A DNA stretch of 64,000 nt from an uncultured Candidatus Saccharibacteria bacterium (GCA_964602665.1 CAZRRH010000001.1:8414-72413), one strand, 5' to 3'; counted from the stretch's first letter, positions 13,208 to 62,290 are shown. Numbers and translations: made by a program. The notes: generated by a model not told the origin, from the letters alone.

Positions 13208-14425
13208 TTACCGACGGGAGTTTACAAATTTGAGGCTAAGTTCCGATGGGATGCCAAATTTTAATCTAAATTCTTCAGCAGGAAATTCTTCTGTATCACC
13301 TTTATTAATCCACAACAAAATTTTATTTCTGGCTTTTTCTAATGTCTTTTCATAAACCTCGTTGTGATCAACTATTATTTTTAATACTTTTGCCTTTTTA
13401 TCATTCAAATATGGATATCTATCAGAATAATAAGAGCATACTTCATCAAGAGTCTCACTAATCACCTTAATATCTAGCTCATTAATTTTTAATATCGTTA
13501 AAACCTTTCTTATTAACCTTCTGATTATCCTTGCTCTTCCGTTATTACCAGGATTTGGAGCGCCGTCAGCAAGAAGAAACATCAGAGCAGTAACATGATC
13601 GGTAAAGATTCTTAAATCAACATCATTCATTTTTACTTTTTTCGCAATTAATTTCGGTAAATTATTTTCAAATACACTTTTCAAACCATTTTTTGACATA
13701 ATTAATCTCTCAATTCCAAAGACAGTCTCAAAAGCCTGATTTTGCAATTTAATAATTTTATTTTGTGTCGTTATACCGCTTGTGATGAAAAGATTGTTCG
13801 ATATTTCAATAAATCTTCCGCATTTACAAAACGGATTACAATTAGTATTTTTACATCCCTTTTTCTCAGTATCATAAAAAATTTCTGTTGTAACACCACA
13901 CAACCGTAATTCAGAAATAATTTTATCAGAAGGCCCTTGCACCCATATATTATCTTTGATTTTACCAAAATGAACATTTCTCTCTCCAAGAAGTTTCAAC
14001 CAACCGTAATATGAGTCTTTGTCTTTCATAAATTTATGCCTCATATATACACCACCGCCAAAAACTGTTGCATGAATTTTTTCTTTTTTAAAACCAAGAT
14101 TTACAAGAAGATCAAAAAGCTTTTTAATCTCATCTTCCTTTGAGTAATCCCCAACAATAAAAGCTCCGGCCATTTCAAAAAAGCTTAAATGAGTATCGTC
14201 ACCGATTAAATCAATATCAAAATGCCTGAAGCATTTCTGTATCACAGAAATTTTTCGGTTTATTTTATGAGGCAATTTAATTAATGGGTCAAGCTGTACC
14301 ATTCCTGCAGACATATTAAAAGACATCGGAAACATCTCATGAACAAGAGAAGCAGATGGCTGATTCTCATAATCATATCTATTAAAGTATTTAATAAATT
14401 CTATCGCTAAATTATTAGCTTCCAT
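13208..14425 (-). CDS. alaS: alanyl-tRNA synthetase catalytic fragment (aminoacylation + tRNA-recognition domains only; no editing or C-Ala domain)
   Basis: SAGMVQ (E. coli TNAGMNQF), SVIQKCFR (TTSQRCVRAGG), HLSFFEMAGAFIVGDY (HHTFFEMLGNFSFGDY), TTEIFYD, GRFIEISNNLF (RYIEIWNIVFMQ), FGIERL, TDHVTALMFLLADGAPNPGNNGRARIIRRLIRK. The ORF ends at the equivalent of about E. coli residue 455. Confidence 0.8.
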   Translation of the reverse strand: MEANNLAIEFIKYFNRYDYENQPSASLVHEMFPMSFNMSAGMVQLDPLIKLPHKINRKISVIQKCFRHFDIDLIGDDTHLSFFEMAGAFIVGDYSKEDEIKKLFDLLVNLGFKKEKIHATVFGGGVYMRHKFMKDKDSYYGWLKLLGERNVHFGKIKDNIWVQGPSDKIISELRLCGVTTEIFYDTEKKGCKNTNCNPFCKCGRFIEISNNLFITSGITTQNKIIKLQNQAFETVFGIERLIMSKNGLKSVFENNLPKLIAKKVKMNDVDLRIFTDHVTALMFLLADGAPNPGNNGRARIIRRLIRKVLTILKINELDIKVISETLDEVCSYYSDRYPYLNDKKAKVLKIIVDHNEVYEKTLEKARNKILLWINKGDTEEFPAEEFRLKFGIPSELSLKFVNSRR

Positions 14426-31929: not shown

Positions 31930-32350
31930 GGGGACGCAAGGCTTTCGACAGGGATTGTCTTCTTTATATTACAAGCAGGGTTTGACTCACCTTTATAATA
32001 GAGTCGGCAAAATAACTGCCAAAACAAATATTGCAACTTGGATAAGCGAGAAAGCACAGAATTTGTTTGCCTCACTAAGGCCAGCATTTCAGTACCAACT
32101 CCTTGCCTAGTTTATCTCTAAGGAGATACGCTTTTAATCACTCCTCCCAAATCGAGGGGTTATAGGCGGCTAAGAGGTTTGGGTGTAGCAAGATGGCTTC
32201 TCTTGGCCAAGCTATCTTGTCAAATTTATGTGCCAGGCGTGTTATCTTTTTTGCTCACTTAAGATGATAGCATGTATAACAAGTGAGATAAGCTTGTATA
32301 ATAGTATGAGGAAGGATTTCTGGATATGGGTTCAATTCCCGTCGTCTCCA
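31930..32350 (+). ncRNA. ssrA: transfer-messenger RNA (tmRNA)
   Basis: 5' end GGGGACGCAAGGCTTTCGACAGGG (the tmRNA acceptor and D-analogue signature). The 3' end GGGTTCAATTCCCGTCGTCTCCA has a T-arm and an acceptor strand complementary to the 5' GGGGACG. CCA is not encoded. A candidate tag frame ends ...ASLRPAFQYQLLA before a TAG at 32108-32110. Confidence 0.8.
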
Positions 32351-33138
32351 ATTGGGAATATTTGAGTTAGACCAGCACAGGTTTCAATTATTCTATAAAA
32401 ATCTCCTAGACTAATACCTATTGTTCTATTATATGTATCCCATCTTTTTGGTATAGCCATTGTGAATCCACGATCATCTAGCATCAATCCTAAATCGTCA
32501 TATCCATAAGTTGTTCTTTTTCTATGAAAAGGCCCGTCTTTTTTTCTTTCATATTCCCCTCTTATCAACATCATTAGTGCGGGAGTTCTTATCATATAAG
32601 CATCAGGAGAAAATAAATGCTGTTGAACAGAGAGAGATCTCACATATGGAGTATGTCCGTTATTTTTGTTTCTTCCAAGTTTTAGTACGGCAAGCGAAAT
32701 AGTAGGAATCCATCTGTTATCAATTCTTATTCTAGGCAATAAGAAAGCACATGCATTACTATAAGGATCAATAAACCCATGAAATCTTGGATTAATTTCA
32801 TTTAATCAAGTATCTGCAAGGATCCCAAGCATTGAATCTTGATTAGCTGGTACCATTTCAACAGGATTTGTTGTGTTTTCATCTATGCAGACAGAGATAC
32901 TTCTAACCGGAGAATGCCAATTTAGCACCTTTCCGGACCAAGCTTCAGTGGCTTCTTGGCAACCATCCGCAAATGTCATTCCTAAAAATCCCCACCTTTC
33001 TGGTAGAACTGTCTTTTGAAGCAATGGATGAACAACCTCTTTGCTTACACTTGCACCTTCTCTAGCAAACCCGGGCGTTTGCCCGTTTTCATCACCAAAC
33101 ATCATATTTGCAAGTGTTAAATTGCCGTTATTTTCCAT
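32332..33138 (-). pseudogene. hypothetical protein gene interrupted by an in-frame TGA (two same-frame ORFs); about 45% GC island abutting the tmRNA 3' end
   Basis: The ORFs at 32806..33138 and 32332..32739 are in the same frame. Translating across 32740-32805 gives ...GILADT-TGA-LNEINPRFHGFIDPYSNACAFLL-PRIRIDNRW... with no other stop. The TGA is at 32806-32808. Local GC is about 45% against about 30% genome-wide. The 3' end overlaps the tmRNA 3' end by 19 nt. I could not assign a family. Confidence 0.35.
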
Positions 33139-53988: not shown

Positions 53989-56595
53989 CTACTCAATAAC
54001 AAAGTCAGCATTTTTAGTTGGCAAATATTTCTCCAAAGCTATACGAATTTCTTTTGACAACTTTTCGCTGATTTGTTCTTCGACTCCTCGCATCGCTATT
54101 CTTACAGTTTCCTGCCTTAAATCTTTCTTTTTCAATTCATCATTGCTGTAGATATCGACAGGCTCAAGCTCAAAATGAATTGGATATTTGCTTAAAATCT
54201 TTTCTATACCTTCAATAAGCTCTCTATGAGTCATTTTATTTTCGACTATATAACAAATATCTTGTACCATCTTAGGGAATTTAGTAGGAACATCCTCCGT
54301 CTTCTTACTATCAACAATGTTCATTAGTTCTTCAATGTTGATCTCAAATCCTGCTGTATGCTCTGGTATCTTCATCTTTTCAATCAGCTTGTAAGAAATT
54401 TGCCCCAATACGCCTAAATAAAATCTTTGCCCATTTAATTTATATATTAGGATACCGCTTTGATTATGGTCATACACATCTTTCATGTTTTCTAACCAAA
54501 CAGGAAGATCAACACAGCTATCCCATGACACAATATCTATTTTAGGACATCTAAGGAAATTAGATAGCTCCGTTAAATATTTTTTTGCACTATAATATCC
54601 TGTCCCTACTCCTTGCAAATCAGTATAAACAAGAGCGAGTGATCTAAACTCATAAGGAAGCCCTTCATTATTTAAAATATTTTTTACATGGAATTTATTA
54701 ACTTCAAATAAAACGAACTTTTTATACCCATTAGATATATTTAATGGCACTTTTGATATTACAGATGGCATTAATAACGATCTCATATACTCTAATTCAG
54801 GAGATATAGAGTTAGTAAGTCTAAACGAAGAGGTTTTAAGCGTAGGATTAATTTGATCATACAAATCTCTATTAATAAAACTGTAAGTAATTATCTCGTT
54901 ACCTCCCATTGCAATAAGTCCATTTCTTACCCGACTTTCGAGCTCAAGTACTTTATTTCTTTTAACAGGCTTAACTTTCCTGCTTGGTAATTTTAATGGA
55001 ATATTATTAAAGCCAGAAATTCTTGCGATCTCTTCATAAATATCTTCTTTGATAGATAAATCCTGCCTATATGTCGGAACAGAAACAACTAATACTTCTT
55101 CCTCATCATCAAGAGGACTATCATATCCATCTTTGACAACAAGCTCTGTCTCTTTTTGAGGAGTTAACTTCTCTTTTACAACAAGCTCTGCGTTTGACAG
55201 GGTAGAAATGACTTCTTTTTTTGTAAATGTCTTACCAATTATTTTATTAAGTCCATTAATGCTAAAAGCAACTTCTTTTTCGGATCTAGGAAATTGAAAG
55301 TCGTCGCAGATCTCACTAGCTAAATTACCATTTGCATGACTTTGTAGCATTTCAAGAGTTTTATGCAAAACAACCTCACACATGGCAGGATCTTGATTTC
55401 TTGAGTATCTAGTTGTCGCTTCGCTACTGATTCCAACTTTATTACTTGTCTTACGAATATTATACATATCAAAGTTAGCCGACTCCAATATTATTGTTTT
55501 ACTTTTAACATCTATTTCTGTATCAAGACCTCCCATAACGCCGGCAATTCCTATAGGATCTTCTCCATCAGTTATTACGACTATGGAACTATCTAACTTA
55601 ATTTTATCTCCGTTGATCACAGTTATCGTTTCGCCGTCTTTTGCCGTTCTAACAACAATACTTGCATCACAATCGCTACTGTTCTTAAGACATTTTGTTG
55701 ATCTGTTAACAACTTTATCGTAATCAAAAGCATGCAGTGGCTGTCCCGTCAACAACATCATATAATTTGTTATGTCTACTACATTGTTTATTGGCCTTAT
55801 GCCCGCTTTCGCTAATTCTATTTGCATCCAGATAGGAGATTGCTTTATTTCGATATTCTCGATTACGGCTCCCATATATCGAGGACATAGACTCCCTGCT
55901 TCATTCTTAACCTGTAAGTTATACTTATTTGAACTGTTAATCTTTATCTCTAGCAACTTGTGACCCGACCAATAATTAAACCAATCTGGCGTTTTGTACT
56001 CTAATCCTTGTATTGCACTAATCTCCCTTGCTATTCCGATTAAGCCAAAACACTCAGGACGATTTACCAAAGCTTTATTCTCGACCTCATATATGTAATC
56101 ATCTAAGCCGTAAAGAGAAGCAAAAGATTGCCCTGGCAAAGCATCATCGCCTATTTTATCATTTAATCTCATAACTTGTTCATGATTTCCTGATATATCA
56201 AGCTCTTTTGACGATGCCATCATTCCATTAGACTCAACTCCTCGTAGTTTTACAGCTCTAATAATGCCATCAAAATCATCAGGATGCATATTATGTGGCA
56301 CTCTCGTATTTGGCGGAATATAAGCAACTTTATCACCGACAGCAAGAGTCTTATCTCCTGCAACTACCTGTATAAGCTCCTCTTGCCCAATATCTATCTT
56401 ATACACATTTAACTTATCTGCATCAGGATGAGAGGCCACTTCCTTGATTTGAGCGACAATTATTCCTTTGTATTTCTCACTTAAATTCTCAATACTTTCA
56501 ACCTCTCCAATTCTTGTAGCGATAAGCTCAGCAAGTATTATTGGATCAACAACTACCTGAGTAAGCTTTTTTACACTATTTAATGAAATTCTCAT
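53989..56595 (-). CDS. pheT: phenylalanyl-tRNA synthetase beta subunit
   Basis: N-terminal tRNA-binding domain HPDADKLNVYKIDIGQEELIQVVAGDKTLAVGDKVAYIPP, B3/B4 and B5 regions, C-terminal anticodon-binding-like domain. 868 aa. Confidence 0.85.
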   Translation of the reverse strand: MRISLNSVKKLTQVVVDPIILAELIATRIGEVESIENLSEKYKGIIVAQIKEVASHPDADKLNVYKIDIGQEELIQVVAGDKTLAVGDKVAYIPPNTRVPHNMHPDDFDGIIRAVKLRGVESNGMMASSKELDISGNHEQVMRLNDKIGDDALPGQSFASLYGLDDYIYEVENKALVNRPECFGLIGIAREISAIQGLEYKTPDWFNYWSGHKLLEIKINSSNKYNLQVKNEAGSLCPRYMGAVIENIEIKQSPIWMQIELAKAGIRPINNVVDITNYMMLLTGQPLHAFDYDKVVNRSTKCLKNSSDCDASIVVRTAKDGETITVINGDKIKLDSSIVVITDGEDPIGIAGVMGGLDTEIDVKSKTIILESANFDMYNIRKTSNKVGISSEATTRYSRNQDPAMCEVVLHKTLEMLQSHANGNLASEICDDFQFPRSEKEVAFSINGLNKIIGKTFTKKEVISTLSNAELVVKEKLTPQKETELVVKDGYDSPLDDEEEVLVVSVPTYRQDLSIKEDIYEEIARISGFNNIPLKLPSRKVKPVKRNKVLELESRVRNGLIAMGGNEIITYSFINRDLYDQINPTLKTSSFRLTNSISPELEYMRSLLMPSVISKVPLNISNGYKKFVLFEVNKFHVKNILNNEGLPYEFRSLALVYTDLQGVGTGYYSAKKYLTELSNFLRCPKIDIVSWDSCVDLPVWLENMKDVYDHNQSGILIYKLNGQRFYLGVLGQISYKLIEKMKIPEHTAGFEINIEELMNIVDSKKTEDVPTKFPKMVQDICYIVENKMTHRELIEGIEKILSKYPIHFELEPVDIYSNDELKKKDLRQETVRIAMRGVEEQISEKLSKEIRIALEKYLPTKNADFVIE

Positions 56596-56615: not shown

Positions 56616-58316
56616 TTAAAATTGTTTTAAGAAATCTAAATTTCCTCCTCTTATGTCACGAATATTCTTAATGCCTGCTCTTATCATGACAAGTCTATCA
56701 AGTCCAAATCCCCAGGCAAATCCAGAATATATATTTGGATCAATCCCCGCCAGTGATAAAACATTAGGATGAATAACACCACAACCTACAAGCTCAATCC
56801 AACCATGATGCCCACAAGTACTACATCCTGTTTTTTTACAGAAAGGACAAGACATACACAACTCAAGTCCCGGCTCAACAAACGGAAAATGTGATGGCTG
56901 TAATTTTACTTCTAACTTTGTCTGATAATACTCCTCCAAAAAGCTATGCATCACAGCTTCCATATTACTTAAACTAATCCCCTTATCTACATAGATTCCT
57001 TCTAAATGCGCTAAAGTATGTTCATGCCTATCATCTGTTGCTTCATTTCTATAACAAGTACCTGGAACTATAAATCTAATAGGAGGTTTATTGCTTTTTA
57101 ATATACGATTTTGCATAGTAGAAGTATGGGTTGTCGGAATAAGCCCTTCTTCTGTATGGAAAGTATCCCACATATCTCTCGCAGGATGGCCATCAGGGAA
57201 ATTTAGCGCTGTAAACATATTGTAATCGCTATCAAGCTGTCTTGCGTCTTGCACAGAAAACCCCATGGATAAAAATATCTTAGAAATCTCCTCTAGCTCT
57301 GCACTTAACGGGTTCTTATGCCCTCTATCAGGAATCAATTGAGGTCTATCCTTTTGCTCACTATTGACTCCAAAAGGAGCTGTTAAATCAATCTTATAAG
57401 ATTTCTTAGCTGTCTTCTCAGCTTCTAACAACTGTTTCCATTTTTCTTGTGCAGACATTTTTAATATATTAACTTTCTTACCATATTCTGCCCTCTCTTC
57501 ACCTGATTTGTTCTTTATCTCTTGCAGAAGATTTGTTATTAGACCGTTTTTACCAAGATATTTGTCCTCAAATTGTTTTGCTGTTAGACTCTGGCTATCC
57601 ATCTCTTTAATTATATCAGAAAATTCTATTGAACTAGCATTGTCAACAATCTCATATCTAATTCTCACATTATCACTGCCTTCCTTTTTTATCTTAACAA
57701 TTTTTAGTCCCGCTAATTTACTTGTATTATCGGCATGCGTACCCCCACATAAATCTTCAACATCATCTCCAATATGCAAAACACTTTTATGTTCATCAAT
57801 GCAAACTACTTTCATATTTAAAGCCAATTTTATTATCTTATCAACCTCTTTCTGAAGATCATCAGTATTACGAGGCTCCCCTTGATACTGAACATAAGCA
57901 GCCTCTTTATAATGATAGCCCTTAATTGGCTTATAATCCCAAGCCAAATTTCTCACCGCCAAGTCAATAATGTGACCAGCGCTATGATAAATGCTATTAA
58001 TAGATCTGACATCTTTATCTATGGAAACTTTTACGGTATCACCTTTATTAAAGTATCCCTGTTTTATTGTCCCTAGATGAAGTATTTTATCAGCTTCTTT
58101 ATCTTTATATACTTTCTCGACTTGAAAAAGAGCGCTACCTTTTACTATTGTACCGATATCTGATGGCTGTCCCCCTCCCTGTGGATAAAAAGGCGTTTTA
58201 TCAAGCAATATTGCCGTATGAGTAATTCCATCAATCGTCTCCTCCTCTAATTCGATTATTTTGGCCTCAACCGTCATTAATTGTGGATTATGCTTATAAA
58301 TCAGCTCTGTTTTCAT
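56616..58316 (-). CDS. pheS: phenylalanyl-tRNA synthetase alpha subunit fused to an N-terminal AlaX-M / AlaRS-editing-type domain
   Basis: Residues 1-230 match the AlaX/AlaRS editing-domain fold: LLDKTPFYPQGGGQPSDIG, HxxxH (YHSAGHIIDL), CxxxH (LCGGTHADNTS). Residues 235-566 are canonical PheS: FPDGHPARDMWDTF, PTTHTSTMQ, GTCYRNE...HLEG, SHFPFVEPGLEL, GWIELVGCGVIHPNVL, GFAWGFGLDRL. It is a single uninterrupted ORF. Confidence 0.8.
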   Translation of the reverse strand: MKTELIYKHNPQLMTVEAKIIELEEETIDGITHTAILLDKTPFYPQGGGQPSDIGTIVKGSALFQVEKVYKDKEADKILHLGTIKQGYFNKGDTVKVSIDKDVRSINSIYHSAGHIIDLAVRNLAWDYKPIKGYHYKEAAYVQYQGEPRNTDDLQKEVDKIIKLALNMKVVCIDEHKSVLHIGDDVEDLCGGTHADNTSKLAGLKIVKIKKEGSDNVRIRYEIVDNASSIEFSDIIKEMDSQSLTAKQFEDKYLGKNGLITNLLQEIKNKSGEERAEYGKKVNILKMSAQEKWKQLLEAEKTAKKSYKIDLTAPFGVNSEQKDRPQLIPDRGHKNPLSAELEEISKIFLSMGFSVQDARQLDSDYNMFTALNFPDGHPARDMWDTFHTEEGLIPTTHTSTMQNRILKSNKPPIRFIVPGTCYRNEATDDRHEHTLAHLEGIYVDKGISLSNMEAVMHSFLEEYYQTKLEVKLQPSHFPFVEPGLELCMSCPFCKKTGCSTCGHHGWIELVGCGVIHPNVLSLAGIDPNIYSGFAWGFGLDRLVMIRAGIKNIRDIRGGNLDFLKQF

Positions 58317-58575
58317 CTTTTTTGTTTGTATTAATTTAATTAAACGCCCCCGCCATTAGGAATTTTGCTTTGTAACAGACATAACTACATCTGTCCTCAA
58401 TACCAAAATTCCTAATGGCGGGGGCGTATCTATTTCTTACGCGGTACCACCCTACCTTTGATCTCTTTTCTAGTATTTATACGGTTTTATTCCGTCGGAT
58501 TCTACTCTCCTGTCTATACACAACAAAATTTCTTTCCGCCCCATCCTCAGATGAACAATTCTGAGTCTATCGGGT
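58317..58575 (-). promoter_or_regulatory. T-box riboswitch leader (antiterminator/terminator) upstream of pheS
   Basis: The minus strand contains AAAGGUAGGGUGGUACCGCG (the T-box consensus AGGGUGGNACCGCG) at 58453..58440. A perfect 24-bp terminator stem lies at 58427..58404 and 58367..58344 (GCCCCCGCCAUUAGGAAUUUUG ... CAAAAUUCCUAAUGGCGGGGGCG), followed by a U/A-rich tract. GGGUGG can pair with CCGCCC of the terminator 5' arm to form the antiterminator. A small upstream hairpin at 58565..58546 displays UUC. Confidence 0.75.
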
Positions 58576-58917
58576 TTATTTAGCCTGATTTACTATTTTT
58601 GAAAATAATTCAGGACTGTCTTGCAAAATCTCTGATAATACTTTTCTGTTTAACTGAATCTTTGCTTTTTTTAAACCGAAGATTAGCTCTTTATATTTGA
58701 GCCCGTTTTGCAATGCGCCTGCATTTAATCTTGTTATCCAAACCCTGCGCATTTGACTTGCTCTCCTGCGTCTGTGGATATAAGAATATTGTCCTGCATG
58801 TAAATATGCCTCGTGAGCAACTTTGTACAGCTTACTTTTTGTCATTCTATAACCTTTATTTGCATTAAGGACTTTTTTATGTCTTCTTCTTGTTACAACA
58901 CCACCTTTTACTCTCAT
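58576..58917 (-). CDS. rplT: ribosomal protein L20
   Basis: VTRRRHKKVLN...YIHRRRRASQMRRVWITRLNAGAL, strong L20 identity. Confidence 0.9.
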   Translation of the reverse strand: MRVKGGVVTRRRHKKVLNANKGYRMTKSKLYKVAHEAYLHAGQYSYIHRRRRASQMRRVWITRLNAGALQNGLKYKELIFGLKKAKIQLNRKVLSEILQDSPELFSKIVNQAK

Positions 58918-59132
58918 TTCTTTATGTTGGTTATTTTATTTCTTATTTTTGCAACAGCAACTTCTGTATGTGTTTTACTTGGTAATTTCCTTCTTTTGCT
59001 TCTTGCTGATCTCTTGGTCTGAAGATGATGTTTACGAGTTGGATTGTAAAGCCCTTTTATTTTGGATTTATCTTTAGGGTTTGTGAATTTCACTCGTTTT
59101 TTTGCTGTTTTATTTGTCTTTATTTTAGGCAT
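58914..59132 (-). CDS. rpmI: ribosomal protein L35
   Basis: MPKIKTNKTAKKRVKFT... matches L35. Start taken at the internal ATG; the listed ORF begins 12 codons upstream at a TTG. Confidence 0.75.
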   Translation of the reverse strand: MPKIKTNKTAKKRVKFTNPKDKSKIKGLYNPTRKHHLQTKRSARSKRRKLPSKTHTEVAVAKIRNKITNIKK

Positions 59133-59169
59133 GTCTTTTATTATACCATGTTGGTCGTCATTTGTCAAT

Positions 59170-59772
59170 CTAGGGAGAAACTGTTATCCTCAGCACTGGC
59201 CCCATTGCAACAGAATCTTTATCTCCTGAAACTTTTAAATTTATGCTTGTCATCTCATGCTCTTCACCATCTAGAGGACAAAAACGGGCAACAACAGAAC
59301 CTTCGGCTCTGTTTTCTTTAAGCACTCCTTCTGGTGCTCTCTCAAGGATCATTGCGCTACGATATGATCCTTCTTGATTATCGGTGGCTCTTGCATCGAT
59401 AACAGCATCTTCAAAACAAGCTTGATTTGTATTCCCAAAAGCAATTCCATAAGGAGAAGGGCTCACACCTGCATTCATGCGGTATTCAAGCTCAACTGGA
59501 TCAAAAATCATTGGTACAACCATAGTTGGGGACCCGGCAACTACGGACCTGGGTTGCCAAAAAGATGTCCTTAAAGATCTCATTGCATCAAGAATTTTTT
59601 CACCGTTATTAACAAGATGTTGAAAATGCTTCAACCTTGCAGAAAATCTTGGAGCAACAACTTCCATCCCTTTGAAAACTCGCTCGTGCGATCTTCGCCA
59701 AACAATGGTTTCCTCTTCATTAGGTATTTGCGTAACAGTTCTTTCAGATGTGGGTCTGTTATAAAATGTCAT
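59170..59772 (-). CDS. hypothetical protein (200 aa), a compositionally atypical gene (about 45% GC) between infC and rpmI
   Basis: The ORF has no recognisable motifs and breaks up the otherwise conserved infC-rpmI-rplT arrangement. Hand-counted GC of 60-nt samples is about 45% against about 30% in flanking genes. Confidence 0.35.
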   Translation of the reverse strand: MTFYNRPTSERTVTQIPNEEETIVWRRSHERVFKGMEVVAPRFSARLKHFQHLVNNGEKILDAMRSLRTSFWQPRSVVAGSPTMVVPMIFDPVELEYRMNAGVSPSPYGIAFGNTNQACFEDAVIDARATDNQEGSYRSAMILERAPEGVLKENRAEGSVVARFCPLDGEEHEMTSINLKVSGDKDSVAMGPVLRITVSP

Positions 59773-59946
59773 GTGTGTTTTTTTACAATTTAAATATTTT
59801 TTACAATCTCTTCAATCTTTATAAAAAGAGATTCTGCATAATCCTCTGTCATCTCTCCACTCTCTATCATCTTTAACACTTTATCCGTGATAGATAATAT
59901 CAGCCTTTTTAGTTTCTCTTCTTTTAAGCTTTTCTCCATATCAAAA

Positions 59947-60492
59947 CTATTTCCTCTTCTTGTAAGTAATCATCATCCTCCTTCCTTCTTCTTTGCTATC
60001 ACCTTCGATACTGTCATAATCCATAAAAAGTTCTTTGAGCGAAGCCATAATAATCAAAGCTTGCTCTCTAGGCTGCCGGCCTCGCCTTTCTACTGTTATC
60101 CTCACATTATGGCCTTTATCCAAAAACTCTTTTGCTCTTTTGACTTTTATATCAATATCGTGCTGCTCGATCACGGGACTAAACTTAAATTCTTTCATTT
60201 CACGAGCTTTTGTACGGCTTTTTTTCTTTTTCTTATTTTGCTCGTAGAGGTATTTGGAGTAGTCCATAATTTTACAAACAGGAGGATTTGCCTCTGGACT
60301 TATTTCTATCAAATCAAGCTCTGCTTCCCACGCAATCTTTCTGGCTTCATCCGTTTTCAAAACGCCTAAATTGTTTCCTTCGTTGTCAATTACTCTTACT
60401 TCTGGTGCTTTTATATACATATTCCTGTTAGGCCCAGCGAAATAATTTCTGTTTACAGCTGGTGCTCTATTCTTATTGTAAAATTTTGGCAT
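59947..60492 (-). CDS. infC: translation initiation factor IF-3
   Basis: EVRVIDNEGNNLGVLKTDEARKIAWEAELDLIEISPEANPPVCKIMDY and C-domain conservation. Confidence 0.85.
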   Translation of the reverse strand: MPKFYNKNRAPAVNRNYFAGPNRNMYIKAPEVRVIDNEGNNLGVLKTDEARKIAWEAELDLIEISPEANPPVCKIMDYSKYLYEQNKKKKKSRTKAREMKEFKFSPVIEQHDIDIKVKRAKEFLDKGHNVRITVERRGRQPREQALIIMASLKELFMDYDSIEGDSKEEGRRMMITYKKRK

Positions 60493-60508
60493 ATCTCCTA
60501 TTAAAAAT

Positions 60509-62290
60509 TTAACTGTTCTGTCCCAAGCTTGTTTCTCCTTTGCTTTTTATCTCCTTGACAAGCTGTTCTATAAATCGATCTTTTTGTATCATACCGATAT
60601 TTTGACCTCCCTTTGGCCTTACTGATACCGTGCCAAGCTCCATTTCCTTATCACCGACAACAACAATGTAATTTATTCTGTCTAATTCAGCTTTTCTTAT
60701 CTTTGCCTGCATTTTTTCCTCGCTCGCGTCGACAGAGCTTCTTATGCCAATATCAAGTAAATCATCATTAAGTTTGTTTAGATATTCTGTATGCTTCTGG
60801 TTAGACACAGGGATTAATCTAACCTGATTAGGCGCCAGCCAGAGAGGAAAGTTACCACCATAATACTCTATCAGAAAGGCAAAAAACCTCTCAAAAGAGC
60901 CTATCAATGCTCTGTGTATAACAAATGGTCGTTTCTTCTGCCCATCACTATCAACATAAGATATATCAAATCGTTCTGGCAGATTAAAATCTACCTGTAT
61001 TGTTGATATAGAGTCTTCTTTGCCAAAGACATTTATTGCTTGTACATCAAGCTTAGGTCCATAAAAAGCCGCTTCTCCCGGCGCCTCATAAAAATCAACT
61101 TTGTTTTTAACTAAAACATCACGGAGAGTTTGCTCTGCCACCTCCCAATCCTCCGCTGTCCCACAGAATTTAAACTTCTCGGCGGTTTTATCAGACAAAG
61201 AGAGCCTATATTTATAATTAGTAAATCCTAAGTCTTTGTAAAATTTCTGTAGCATCTCCATAACCTCCATAAATTGTGTCTCAAGTTGTGATGGCGTACA
61301 GAAAATATGAGCGTCATTTTGCGTAAATCCTCTTACTCTTTGCAAGCCATGCAGCTCTCCAGATTTCTCAAATCTATAAACAGTACCAAATTCACCTATT
61401 TTAAAAGGCAAATCTCGATAACTTTTTGTGTTCATTTTATAAATCATCATCGTGGCAGGACAATTCATTGGCTTAAGATAATATTTGTCATTCTCTATTT
61501 TTATCGGGGAGTACATCGAGTCTTTATAAAAATCAAGATGCCCAGATGTTTTGAAAAGATCTTCTTTATTTATATGAGGGGTAAGACAGTGAACATAGCC
61601 TGCTCTTCGCTCCATTTTAAGCATATAGTCTTCAAGAGTCCTGCGGATTACATAGCCATTTGGCAACCAAACAGGAAGCCCCTGACCTATTTCGTTAAAT
61701 ATGGCAAAAAGCTCCATTTCTTTGCCGATTTTGCGATGATTTCTCTCTTCTGCCAATTTAAGATTGTCAAGATAATGTTTTAACTGCTCTTTAGTTGCAA
61801 ACGCCGTCCCATAAATCCTAGTGAGCATCTTTTTTTTCTCATCTCCTCTCCAATAAGCTCCTGCAATACTAAGTAATTTGATCTTACCAACCTTACCTGT
61901 ATCAGAAACATGGGGCCCTCTACAAAGGTCTGTGAATTCTCCATTTCCAAGAGCATAAAAACTAAGTTTTTGGTCCTCAATCTCTTTTAACAGGTCAAGT
62001 TTATAAGGCTGATCCCAACTTTTGTAAAACTGTGTAGCATCACTTCGATCCTTGAAATACTGATTGACAGGCATCTTTGCTTTGATAATTCTTTGCATTT
62101 CCTTCTCAATCTTTGGAAGATCTTCCTCAGTCACAGGCTCGCTAAATTCGAAGTCGTAGTAAAATCCATTGTCGATTGCTGGACCAATACCAAGTTTAGT
62201 ATCAGGATAAAGTCGGAGTACTGCAAGTGCCAAAACATGAGATGCAGTATGCCTCATTTGTTCAAGTGCCTTTTGCTCTATTTCACTCAT
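60509..62290 (-). CDS. thrS: threonyl-tRNA synthetase (no N1/TGS domain; N2 editing domain present)
   Basis: N2 motifs RHTASHVLAL (HxxxH) and CRGPHV; class II catalytic core; C-terminal anticodon-binding domain HRALIGSFERFFAFLIEYYGGNFPLWLAP. 593 aa, against about 640 with N1. Confidence 0.9.
   Translation of the reverse strand: MSEIEQKALEQMRHTASHVLALAVLRLYPDTKLGIGPAIDNGFYYDFEFSEPVTEEDLPKIEKEMQRIIKAKMPVNQYFKDRSDATQFYKSWDQPYKLDLLKEIEDQKLSFYALGNGEFTDLCRGPHVSDTGKVGKIKLLSIAGAYWRGDEKKKMLTRIYGTAFATKEQLKHYLDNLKLAEERNHRKIGKEMELFAIFNEIGQGLPVWLPNGYVIRRTLEDYMLKMERRAGYVHCLTPHINKEDLFKTSGHLDFYKDSMYSPIKIENDKYYLKPMNCPATMMIYKMNTKSYRDLPFKIGEFGTVYRFEKSGELHGLQRVRGFTQNDAHIFCTPSQLETQFMEVMEMLQKFYKDLGFTNYKYRLSLSDKTAEKFKFCGTAEDWEVAEQTLRDVLVKNKVDFYEAPGEAAFYGPKLDVQAINVFGKEDSISTIQVDFNLPERFDISYVDSDGQKKRPFVIHRALIGSFERFFAFLIEYYGGNFPLWLAPNQVRLIPVSNQKHTEYLNKLNDDLLDIGIRSSVDASEEKMQAKIRKAELDRINYIVVVGDKEMELGTVSVRPKGGQNIGMIQKDRFIEQLVKEIKSKGETSLGQNS

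What the first reader, a model, noticed from the sequence alone, without database searches (positions are those of the whole stretch)
56616..58316. PheS fused to an AlaX/AlaRS-type editing domain, while the only AlaRS here is a catalytic fragment without an editing domain
The first 230 residues of PheS match the AlaX-M / AlaRS editing-domain fold. Both zinc-ligand motifs are present: HxxxH (HSAGH) and CxxxH (CGGTH). A complete PheS follows in the same ORF. The alaS homologue at 13208..14425 stops where canonical AlaRS begins its editing domain. AlaRS editing clears Ser- and Gly-tRNA(Ala), so moving that module onto PheS suggests either trans-editing of tRNA(Ala) mischarging from a PheRS scaffold or a new proofreading activity for PheRS. 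The fusion is read directly from the sequence. Whether it is unusual across lineages is my judgement and is unchecked.
Basis: partly seen in the sequence, partly recalled or inferred. Interest (0 to 1): 0.75.

Follow-up and report, generated by a model that had tools for sequence, protein, structure and literature searches.

The report
PheRS alpha subunit carrying an AlaX editing domain
A candidate-phyla-radiation bacterium (probably Dojkabacteria) has welded a complete AlaX-type proofreading enzyme, which normally removes serine or glycine wrongly attached to alanine tRNA, onto the front of its phenylalanine-tRNA synthetase; this is a real but rare gene architecture with a known precedent in malaria parasites.

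Summary
ORF 56616..58316(-) encodes a 566-aa protein. Residues 1-225 are a complete AlaX-M-type editing module: beta-barrel plus editing core, HSAGH and CGGTH motifs, and the equivalent of E. coli Arg693. A short linker and a complete PheS follow.

The fusion is not an assembly join. At least 14 clusters at 90% identity carry it, on contigs up to 1.13 Mb, always next to pheT. It is rare: 11 of the 150 best clusters at 50% identity.

- The domain's nearest relatives are free-standing AlaX-M proteins, not AlaRS editing domains.
- The 405-aa "alaS" belongs to an old family that never has an editing domain and has a changed amino-acid pocket (D235E, G237V, V214L/I).
- Outside CPR-like contigs, this family sits next to multi-GAF histidine kinases.
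- The fusion and the AlaRS-like gene do not look coupled in other lineages.
- PheT keeps its own editing residues, so a new PheRS proofreading role is unlikely.

I could not test whether a full alaS exists elsewhere in this genome.

Most likely the domain is a trans-acting Ser/Gly-tRNA(Ala) deacylase tethered to PheRS. The closest precedent is the Plasmodium AlaX-TrpRS fusion.

The parts
56616..58316 (-). fused gene: AlaX-M domain, linker and complete PheS (566 aa)
   Evidence: conserved architecture in homologs
57642..58316 (-). AlaX-M-type editing module, residues 1-225 (beta-barrel about 1-100, editing core about 101-225)
   Evidence: Pfam and NCBIfam; PDB 9iuw and 2e1b; AF2 pLDDT about 90; Foldseek 9iuw TMt 0.74, rmsd 3.7
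57972..57986 (-). HxxxH motif (H111-S-A-G-H115)
   Evidence: invariant in all 13 fused homologs aligned
57735..57749 (-). CxGxH motif (C190-G-G-T-H194)
   Evidence: kept in the window's group, replaced by DGGT[LQMI] in most other fused proteins
57663..57665 (-). R218, aligned with E. coli AlaRS R693
   Evidence: R693 as a G3:U70 determinant of editing is from my own knowledge
57624..57641 (-). short flexible linker (residues 226-231)
   Evidence: pLDDT below 50 at 226-230; variable-length insertions here in homologs
57402..57623 (-). PheS N-terminal helical (coiled-coil) tRNA-binding arm, residues 232-305
   Evidence: PF02912 at 248-305; helices 232-303
56616..57329 (-). PheS class II catalytic core, residues 330-566, plus stop codon
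   Evidence: PF01409 243.8 bits; Foldseek top hits are PheRS alpha chains
58317..58579 (-). T-box-like leader of pheST. Stem I hairpin with UUC in its loop (58553..58555); T-box core GGGTGGTACCGCG (58440..58452); terminator hairpin 58343..58428 followed by a U-rich tract
   Evidence: RF00230, 28.6 bits, E=1.2e-4, below gathering score; unique in window, 0.03 expected; z=-8.9
53989..56595 (-). pheT, PheRS beta subunit (868 aa), with the six checked editing-site residues of the B3/4 domain kept
58576..62290 (-). upstream part of the conserved thrS-infC-(200-aa unknown ORF)-rpmI-rplT operon
   Evidence: same order in L002, L003, L034, L038, L039
13208..14425 (-). AlaRS-like protein (405 aa): aminoacylation plus tRNA-recognition domains only; pocket residues E/V/L in place of D235/G237/V214
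31930..32353 (+). tmRNA with a G3:U pair in its acceptor stem (substrate of whichever AlaRS the cell uses)

Best explanation
The gene encodes the housekeeping PheRS alpha subunit with a complete AlaX-M trans-editing deacylase fused to its N-terminus.

Shown:
- The architecture, its conservation, and its position in the thrS-infC-rpmI-rplT-pheS-pheT operon.
- Intact HxxxH and CxGxH motifs and the Arg693 equivalent.
- Six checked PheT editing-site residues kept.
- A tRNA(Phe)-type T-box-like leader upstream.

Inferred:
- The protein assembles into the usual (alpha-beta)2 PheRS.
- Two AlaX modules hang from the tips of the alpha-subunit helical arms on a short flexible linker.
- Each works as an independent hydrolase that clears Ser-tRNA(Ala) and Gly-tRNA(Ala) in trans, as free-standing AlaX does.
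- The fusion mainly gives the editing factor constitutive, stoichiometric expression. It may also give it a tRNA-rich platform in a reduced genome.

In this genome, the only AlaRS-type enzyme seen has no editing domain. The tethered AlaX may therefore be the only AlaRS-type proofreading available. I put that sub-claim at about 0.35-0.4.
For: - Domain identity.
- Motifs and R218.
- Not an artefact: fused homologs at 38-65% identity come from NCBI, JGI, ENA and Logan assemblies, on contigs up to 598 kb and 1.13 Mb. Every locus inspected has pheT downstream. There are 11 fused clusters at 50% identity among the 150 best hits of an exhaustive search.
- Origin: the domain's closest relatives are free-standing AlaX-M proteins named Ser-tRNA(Ala) deacylase AlaX, many from Patescibacteria.
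- PheRS keeps its own editing site.
- T-box-like leader with UUC in the Stem I loop.
- Editing-less AlaRS-like gene in the same window.
- The tmRNA keeps G3:U.
- Precedent for AlaX fused to a non-cognate synthetase: PMC3240968.
Against: - No activity has been measured.
- Most other fused PheS proteins replace the Cys that is reported as crucial for editing (PMC12003907) with Asp, and the His with Leu/Gln/Ile/Met. Across the family, the domain may therefore not be a classical deacylase.
- NCBIfam AlaXM scores 91 bits against an equivalog cut-off of 300.
- The link to the AlaRS-like gene rests on a single genome.
- The AlaRS-like family has a systematically different amino-acid pocket, so it may not make Ser-tRNA(Ala), or may not be the cell's AlaRS at all.
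Confidence: 0.6

Rival explanations
1. The appended domain is no longer, or not only, a Ser/Gly-tRNA(Ala) deacylase. It serves as a general tRNA-binding or scaffolding appendage of PheRS, or it hydrolyses a different substrate.
For: - 8 of the 11 fused cluster representatives have DGGT[LQI] instead of CxGxH.
- About two thirds of the free-standing relatives have an Asp in place of the Cys.
- The literature calls the motif universally conserved and the Cys crucial for editing.
- The fusion persists in lineages where no AlaRS-like gene was detected.
Against: The window's protein and its nearest relatives (P0002, P0003, P0004, P0006) keep the canonical H/H/C/H set, and the window's protein also keeps R218. 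The whole domain is predicted with high confidence as an AlaX-M fold.
Confidence: 0.2
2. The domain gives PheRS, or the neighbouring ThrRS, a new proofreading activity. For example, it clears small amino acids from tRNA(Phe), or Ser from tRNA(Thr).
For: - Physical tethering to PheRS.
- Expression under a tRNA(Phe)-responsive leader.
- The AlaX and ThrRS N2 domains are homologous.
Against: - PheT keeps N254, H265, G318, E334 and A356, with T354 replaced by Ser.
- ThrRS has its own tRNA_SAD editing domain.
- From my own knowledge, PheRS errors are Tyr and m-Tyr, which do not fit an AlaX pocket.
- The Arg693 equivalent points to tRNA(Ala).
Confidence: 0.08
3. One reading: a canonical AlaRS was split, and its own editing domain was relocated to PheS as compensation.
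For: In this window, E. coli AlaRS maps in two complementary pieces onto the two genes.
Against: - The domain includes the AlaX-M beta-barrel, and its best relatives are free-standing AlaX proteins, not AlaRS.
- The AlaRS-like protein belongs to an old family with no editing domain, and every one of the 120 relatives examined carries the same altered pocket.
- AlaRS-like occurs with an unfused PheS in L119.
- Fused PheS occurs where no AlaRS-like gene was found.
Confidence: 0.07
4. Assembly join or frameshift artefact.
For: None found.
Against: The same architecture appears in independent assemblies from four sources, at 38-99% identity.
Confidence: 0.01

Closest known systems
Plasmodium falciparum TrpRS with an appended AlaX-like domain (and ProRS with YbaK); PMC3240968
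   Same: A normally free-standing AlaX-family editing module is fused to the N-terminus of a synthetase for an unrelated amino acid, in organisms with a parasitic or reduced lifestyle. The function of that fusion is also unresolved.
   Different: The partner there is class I TrpRS in a eukaryote, and the paper calls the appended domain a distant AlaX homolog. Here the partner is the class II PheRS alpha subunit in a bacterium, and the domain is a full AlaX-M with canonical motifs.
Free-standing AlaX-M trans-editing proteins (P. horikoshii PH0108 / 2e1b, P. furiosus 9iuw; NCBIfam NF040865)
   Same: Two-subdomain layout, HxxxH and CxGxH motifs, and a match over the whole length.
   Different: Not free-standing. 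The score is 91 bits against the 300-bit equivalog cut-off.
Split or reduced AlaRS systems: Nanoarchaeum equitans split AlaRS (my own knowledge), Tupanvirus mini-AlaRS (PMC10036535), 'small-AlaRS' of CPR/DPANN (bioRxiv 10.1101/2023.05.29.542759)
   Same: The aminoacylation core is separated from, or lacks, the editing and C-Ala domains.
   Different: - The small-AlaRS keeps its editing domain.
- The Tupanvirus enzyme groups with the eukaryotic AlaRSs of its amoeba hosts.
- The family here has its own invariant pocket signature and a 4-Cys cluster. It is not shown to be the cell's only AlaRS.
T-box leaders of Firmicutes pheS genes and the short-Stem-I T-boxes of Actinobacteria (my own knowledge)
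   Same: A T-box core, overlapping antiterminator and terminator, and a UUC codon in the Stem I loop upstream of pheS.
   Different: Stem I is reduced to a single hairpin. The Rfam score is far below the gathering threshold. The element is absent from the related loci examined.

Membership tests
AlaX-M (AlaRS/ThrRS editing-domain superfamily) | N-terminal beta-barrel plus editing core, matched over the full length | tested here: met
   PF01411 positions 463-551 at residues 17-102 and PF07973 at 178-219; 9iuw residues 2-207 aligned to residues 3-218; Foldseek TMt 0.74
AlaX-M (AlaRS/ThrRS editing-domain superfamily) | HxxxH and CxGxH zinc/catalytic motifs | tested here: met
   H111/H115 and C190/H194; the motif definition is from PMC12003907
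AlaX-M (AlaRS/ThrRS editing-domain superfamily) | free-standing protein of about 210-250 aa that reaches the NCBIfam equivalog score | tested here: not met
   Fused to PheS; NF040865 scores 91.3 bits against a cut-off of 300
AlaX-M (AlaRS/ThrRS editing-domain superfamily) | hydrolysis of Ser-tRNA(Ala) and Gly-tRNA(Ala) | not testable with these tools
   Needs a deacylation assay
Bacterial PheRS alpha subunit (PheS) | class II core of the PheS type plus the N-terminal helical domain | tested here: met
   PF01409 243.8 bits (cut-off 19.8) and PF02912 41.4 bits; PheRS alpha chains are the top structural matches
Bacterial PheRS alpha subunit (PheS) | TIGR00468 equivalog score | tested here: inconclusive
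   223.7 bits against a cut-off of 237.45
Bacterial PheRS alpha subunit (PheS) | encoded next to pheT in the rplT-pheS-pheT operon | tested here: met
Canonical AlaRS (alaS, TIGR00344) | aminoacylation and tRNA-recognition domains with the class II catalytic residues (R69, W170, N212, motif-3 R) | tested here: met
   PF01411 positions 5-404; residues conserved in all or nearly all of the 120 homologs
Canonical AlaRS (alaS, TIGR00344) | editing domain and C-Ala | tested here: not met
   The protein ends at 405 aa and hrcA follows after 97 nt
Canonical AlaRS (alaS, TIGR00344) | alanine pocket residues D235, G237, V214 (E. coli numbering) | tested here: not met
   E and V in 120 of 120 homologs; L in 114 and I in 6
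Canonical AlaRS (alaS, TIGR00344) | equivalog score | tested here: not met
   160.4 bits against 457 (TIGR00344); 191.9 bits against 529 (NF002436)
T-box leader (RF00230) | conserved T-box sequence with overlapping antiterminator and terminator | tested here: met
T-box leader (RF00230) | full Stem I and the Rfam gathering score | tested here: not met
   28.6 bits against 93; 73 model positions of Stem I are replaced by 7 nt

The most novel reading that the evidence does not exclude
This lineage decodes alanine with a three-way dismantled AlaRS. The parts are a 405-aa stand-alone synthetase with a re-engineered pocket (E235/V237/L214), no C-Ala domain, and the editing function carried as a passenger on PheRS. 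The cell's only AlaRS would then be naturally editing-less, and alanine-tRNA proofreading would be physically and transcriptionally coupled to tRNA(Phe) charging through the T-box-like leader.
Probability: 0.3. Interest if true: 0.75.

Novelty: new variant of a known kind. Interest (0 to 1): 0.5.

Why it matters
AlaRS editing is regarded as nearly indispensable, and its domain layout as one of the most conserved among synthetases.

A bacterial lineage that carries its AlaX-type proofreading module on PheRS, and that may run on an editing-less AlaRS-like enzyme, would be a natural test of two questions: how much cis-editing is really needed, and whether trans-editing factors gain from being tethered to another synthetase.

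It also gives a bacterial counterpart to the unexplained AlaX-TrpRS fusion of malaria parasites.

Separately, the work exposed an uncharacterised AlaRS-like family. Its pocket is invariant and altered, and in larger genomes it is paired with multi-GAF histidine kinases.

Tried and rejected
1. Genome-wide co-occurrence. I scanned genome contigs with a concatenated AlaX+AlaRS-like alignment. Both patterns the tool chose fell in the AlaRS-like part, so fused PheS loci were not retrieved. No Dojkabacteria genome was hit, not even the window's own.
2. The same query on metagenome contigs again used only AlaRS-like patterns. This was useful for describing that family, but not for co-occurrence.
3. 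Matching Logan samples between fused PheS (P0003, P0004) and AlaRS-like proteins (P0123, P0124). The runs differ.
4. The listing of cluster members returned no accession numbers.
5. Looking for AlaX-like ORFs next to AlaRS-like genes: none.
6. Looking for an alaX gene upstream of pheS in the nearest unfused relatives: none. Fusion of neighbouring genes is therefore not supported.
7. Extending beyond the window ends with edge proteins: not on record.
8. A T-box upstream of the AlaRS-like gene: none.
9. Literature searches for the fusion or for the AlaRS-like/GAF-kinase pairing: nothing found.

Full report
**Observation.**
The ORF at 56616..58316(-) is uninterrupted and encodes 566 aa.
- Pfam places the C-terminal beta-barrel part of the AlaRS family model at residues 17-102 (E=1.8e-15), tRNA_SAD at 178-219 (E=2.2e-9), the PheS N-terminal helical domain at 248-305, and the PheS class II core at 330-566 (E=2.4e-72).
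- NCBIfam adds AlaXM (E=7.6e-26, 91 bits, below its 300-bit equivalog cut-off) and pheS (223.7 bits against a cut-off of 237.45).
- Against solved structures, residues 3-218 align over the whole 214-aa AlaX-M of P. furiosus (9iuw, E=4e-11) and over P. horikoshii AlaX-M (2e1b).
- An AlphaFold model built on 16 sequences gives residues 1-225 a pLDDT of about 90. A low-confidence linker follows at 226-230, then helices at 232-303.
- Foldseek finds PheRS alpha chains first, and 9iuw with TMt 0.74 and rmsd 3.7 A.
- HSAGH (111-115) and CGGTH (190-194) are present. R218 aligns with E. coli AlaRS R693.

**The PheS half and its setting.**
The gene sits in the classic thrS-infC-rpmI-rplT-pheS-pheT operon. 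The same order is seen in related loci L002, L003, L034, L038 and L039.

PheT is complete. It keeps the editing-site residues known from E. coli: N254, H265, G318, E334 and A356, with T354 replaced by Ser. PheRS has therefore not lost its own Tyr-tRNA(Phe) editing site.

The 259-nt leader between rplT and pheS holds several T-box features.
- It has the only copy in the window of the T-box core GGGTGGTACCGCG (0.03 expected by chance).
- It gives a weak Rfam T-box match: 28.6 bits, E=1.2e-4, below the gathering score, with Stem I shortened.
- It has a Stem I hairpin whose 8-nt loop AUUGUUCA contains the Phe codon UUC.
- It has a 24-bp terminator overlapping the antiterminator (z=-8.9).

This fits a housekeeping pheS regulated by uncharged tRNA(Phe). 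The element is absent from the related loci.

**Is the fusion real, and how common is it?**
Fused homologs at 38-65% identity, plus one at 99%, come from NCBI, JGI, ENA and Logan assemblies. They lie on contigs up to 598 kb (GCA_016932785.1, named Candidatus Dojkabacteria) and 1.13 Mb. This is not an assembly join.

An exhaustive search of 1.84 billion cluster representatives finds 11 fused representatives among the best 150 PheS hits. The architecture is real but rare.

The nearest unfused PheS proteins are also Dojkabacteria/WS6. In a neighbour-joining tree of PheS cores, fused and unfused proteins interleave. The AlaX domains fall into three similarity groups, each about as close to free-standing AlaX proteins as to the other groups. 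This suggests repeated gain or loss, but the tree has no support values.

No alaX gene lies upstream of pheS in the closest unfused relatives, so read-through fusion of neighbouring genes is not supported.

**Origin of the domain.**
A profile of the 13 fused domains retrieves mostly free-standing 230-250-aa proteins. Sources name them Ser-tRNA(Ala) deacylase AlaX or alanyl-tRNA editing protein, and many come from Patescibacteria. No AlaRS appears in the best 120. One such gene (P0254) sits alone in a CPR-like contig. The module is therefore an AlaX-M that became fused, not an editing domain excised from AlaRS.

The second motif varies unexpectedly. Among the free-standing relatives and the fused domains pooled, it is CxxxH in about a third, and DxxxQ, DxxxH, DxxxI or DxxxL in the rest. 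Only 2 of the 11 fused representatives, the window's cluster and P0004, keep CGGTH. The literature calls the motif universally conserved and the Cys crucial for editing (PMC12003907). The window's protein has the canonical set.

**The 'alaS fragment'.**
The 405-aa protein covers only the aminoacylation and tRNA-recognition domains. E. coli AlaRS maps onto the window in two pieces: residues 12-416 here and residues 481-704 on PheS.

It is not a recently truncated AlaRS. All 120 best homologs are 322-495 aa. They share a signature:
- E. coli D235 is replaced by E, and G237 by V, in 120 of 120.
- V214 is replaced by L in 114 and by I in 6.
- The AGGK segment after R69 is deleted, and there is a 4-Cys cluster.
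- R69, W170, N212, the motif-3 Arg and R314 are kept.

Genome and metagenome scans plus a tree split the family into two clades.
- Clade I has 17 loci, mostly of low GC and CPR-like. It includes the window, Beckwithbacteria and Roizmanbacteria. None of these genes sits next to a GAF kinase.
- Clade II is found in cyanobacteria, Chloroflexota, Saprospiraceae and Methylococcaceae. A multi-GAF histidine kinase flanks the gene in nearly every locus with enough flanking sequence. One such genome is 8.9 Mb, so there the gene is presumably a paralog of the normal alaS.

Whether the clade I gene is the only AlaRS of its host could not be tested. The tmRNA of the window keeps the G3:U identity pair.

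**Are the two features coupled?**
The evidence points against coupling.
- L119 carries a clade-I AlaRS-like gene 2.7 kb upstream of an operon with an unfused 341-aa PheS.
- The NCBI-sourced clade-I proteins are P0121 (the window's), P0141, P0142, P0191 and P0204. None lies on a contig of the length that carries fused PheS P0002, P0022, P0026 or P0036, one of which is 1.13 Mb.
- The genome scan hit no Dojkabacteria.

This is indirect evidence. It suggests the fusion arose independently of the AlaRS-like gene, and that their meeting in this genome may be fortuitous.

**Mechanism.**
- Best reading (0.6): a trans-acting Ser/Gly-tRNA(Ala) deacylase is tethered by a short linker to the helical arm of PheRS alpha. 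There are two per heterotetramer. It is expressed with, and under the tRNA(Phe) control of, the pheST operon.
- If the AlaRS-like enzyme is the cell's only AlaRS (about 0.35-0.4), this module supplies the missing proofreading.
- Rivals: a non-catalytic or re-purposed domain (0.2, mainly because of the Asp variants); a new PheRS or ThrRS proofreading role (0.08; PheT and ThrRS keep their own editing domains); relocation of AlaRS's own domain (0.07); artefact (0.01).

**Comparison with what is known.**
The closest precedent is the AlaX-like domain appended to P. falciparum TrpRS, with YbaK appended to ProRS. That fusion was described as a highly unusual gene fusion of unknown advantage (PMC3240968).

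A related locus here (L039) has a ThrRS carrying a YbaK-type tRNA_edit domain. Fusion of trans-editing factors to non-cognate synthetases may therefore recur in these reduced genomes.

Reduced AlaRS forms are known: the small-AlaRS of CPR, which keeps its editing domain, and the Tupanvirus mini-AlaRS. I found no paper describing AlaX-PheS or the AlaRS-like/GAF-kinase pairing.

**Verdict.**
This is a real, rare and apparently undescribed variant of a known kind of fusion.

Noticed in passing
L008 4052-8798, L024 4004-9283, L020 24-6508, L025 4052-6981, and about 50 of the loci L043-L122: Outside CPR-like contigs, the 400-450-aa AlaRS-like gene is flanked by a multi-GAF histidine kinase (5-7 GAF domains, usually with HATPase_c). 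The kinase lies downstream in L008, L024 and L025. This holds across cyanobacteria, Chloroflexota, Saprospiraceae and Methylococcaceae. It forms a separate clade from the CPR-like copies. I found no literature on this pairing.
   Followed up: partly
window 13208..14425 and homologs P0121-P0240: The family signature is fixed in all 120 homologs. E. coli D235 becomes E, G237 becomes V, and V214 becomes L or I. The AGGK segment after R69 is deleted, and there is a Cys cluster C-x4-C-x-P-x-C-x-C-G-R. The class II catalytic residues are kept. The amino-acid specificity may therefore differ from, or be stricter than, that of canonical AlaRS.
   Followed up: partly
window 58317..58579 (-): A T-box-like riboswitch leader with a drastically shortened Stem I, a UUC specifier candidate and a strong terminator lies upstream of pheS in a CPR-type genome. 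It is absent from the related loci examined.
   Followed up: partly
L039 3937-6276: The ThrRS of the closest unfused relative is 779 aa. It carries a YbaK/ProX-type tRNA_edit domain (PF04073) in addition to its own tRNA_SAD domain. This is another foreign editing domain fused to a synthetase in the same operon.
   Followed up: no
P0241-P0360 (free-standing AlaX-M homologs) and fused PheS P0005, P0008, P0010, P0022, P0026, P0036, P0067, P0085: About two thirds of these AlaX-M-like proteins replace the 'universally conserved' CxGxH with D-G-G-[TVI]-[HQIL]. The HxxxH motif is kept. This is a large Asp-variant subfamily of unknown activity.
   Followed up: partly
window 56616..58316, PheS residues 490-501: A four-Cys cluster (C490, C493, C498, C501; CPFCKKTGCSTCGHHGW) is invariant in all 16 aligned Dojkabacteria PheS proteins, fused or not. 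It looks like a zinc-ribbon insertion in the catalytic core.
   Followed up: no
window 59170..59772 (-): A 200-aa ORF with no Pfam match lies between infC and rpmI. L034 has a 244-aa ORF, also without a Pfam match, at the same place.
   Followed up: no
window 31930..32353 (+): tmRNA (Rfam 121.8 bits) with the tag AKTNIATWISEKAQNLFASLRPAFQYQLLA and a G3:U pair in the acceptor stem.
   Followed up: partly
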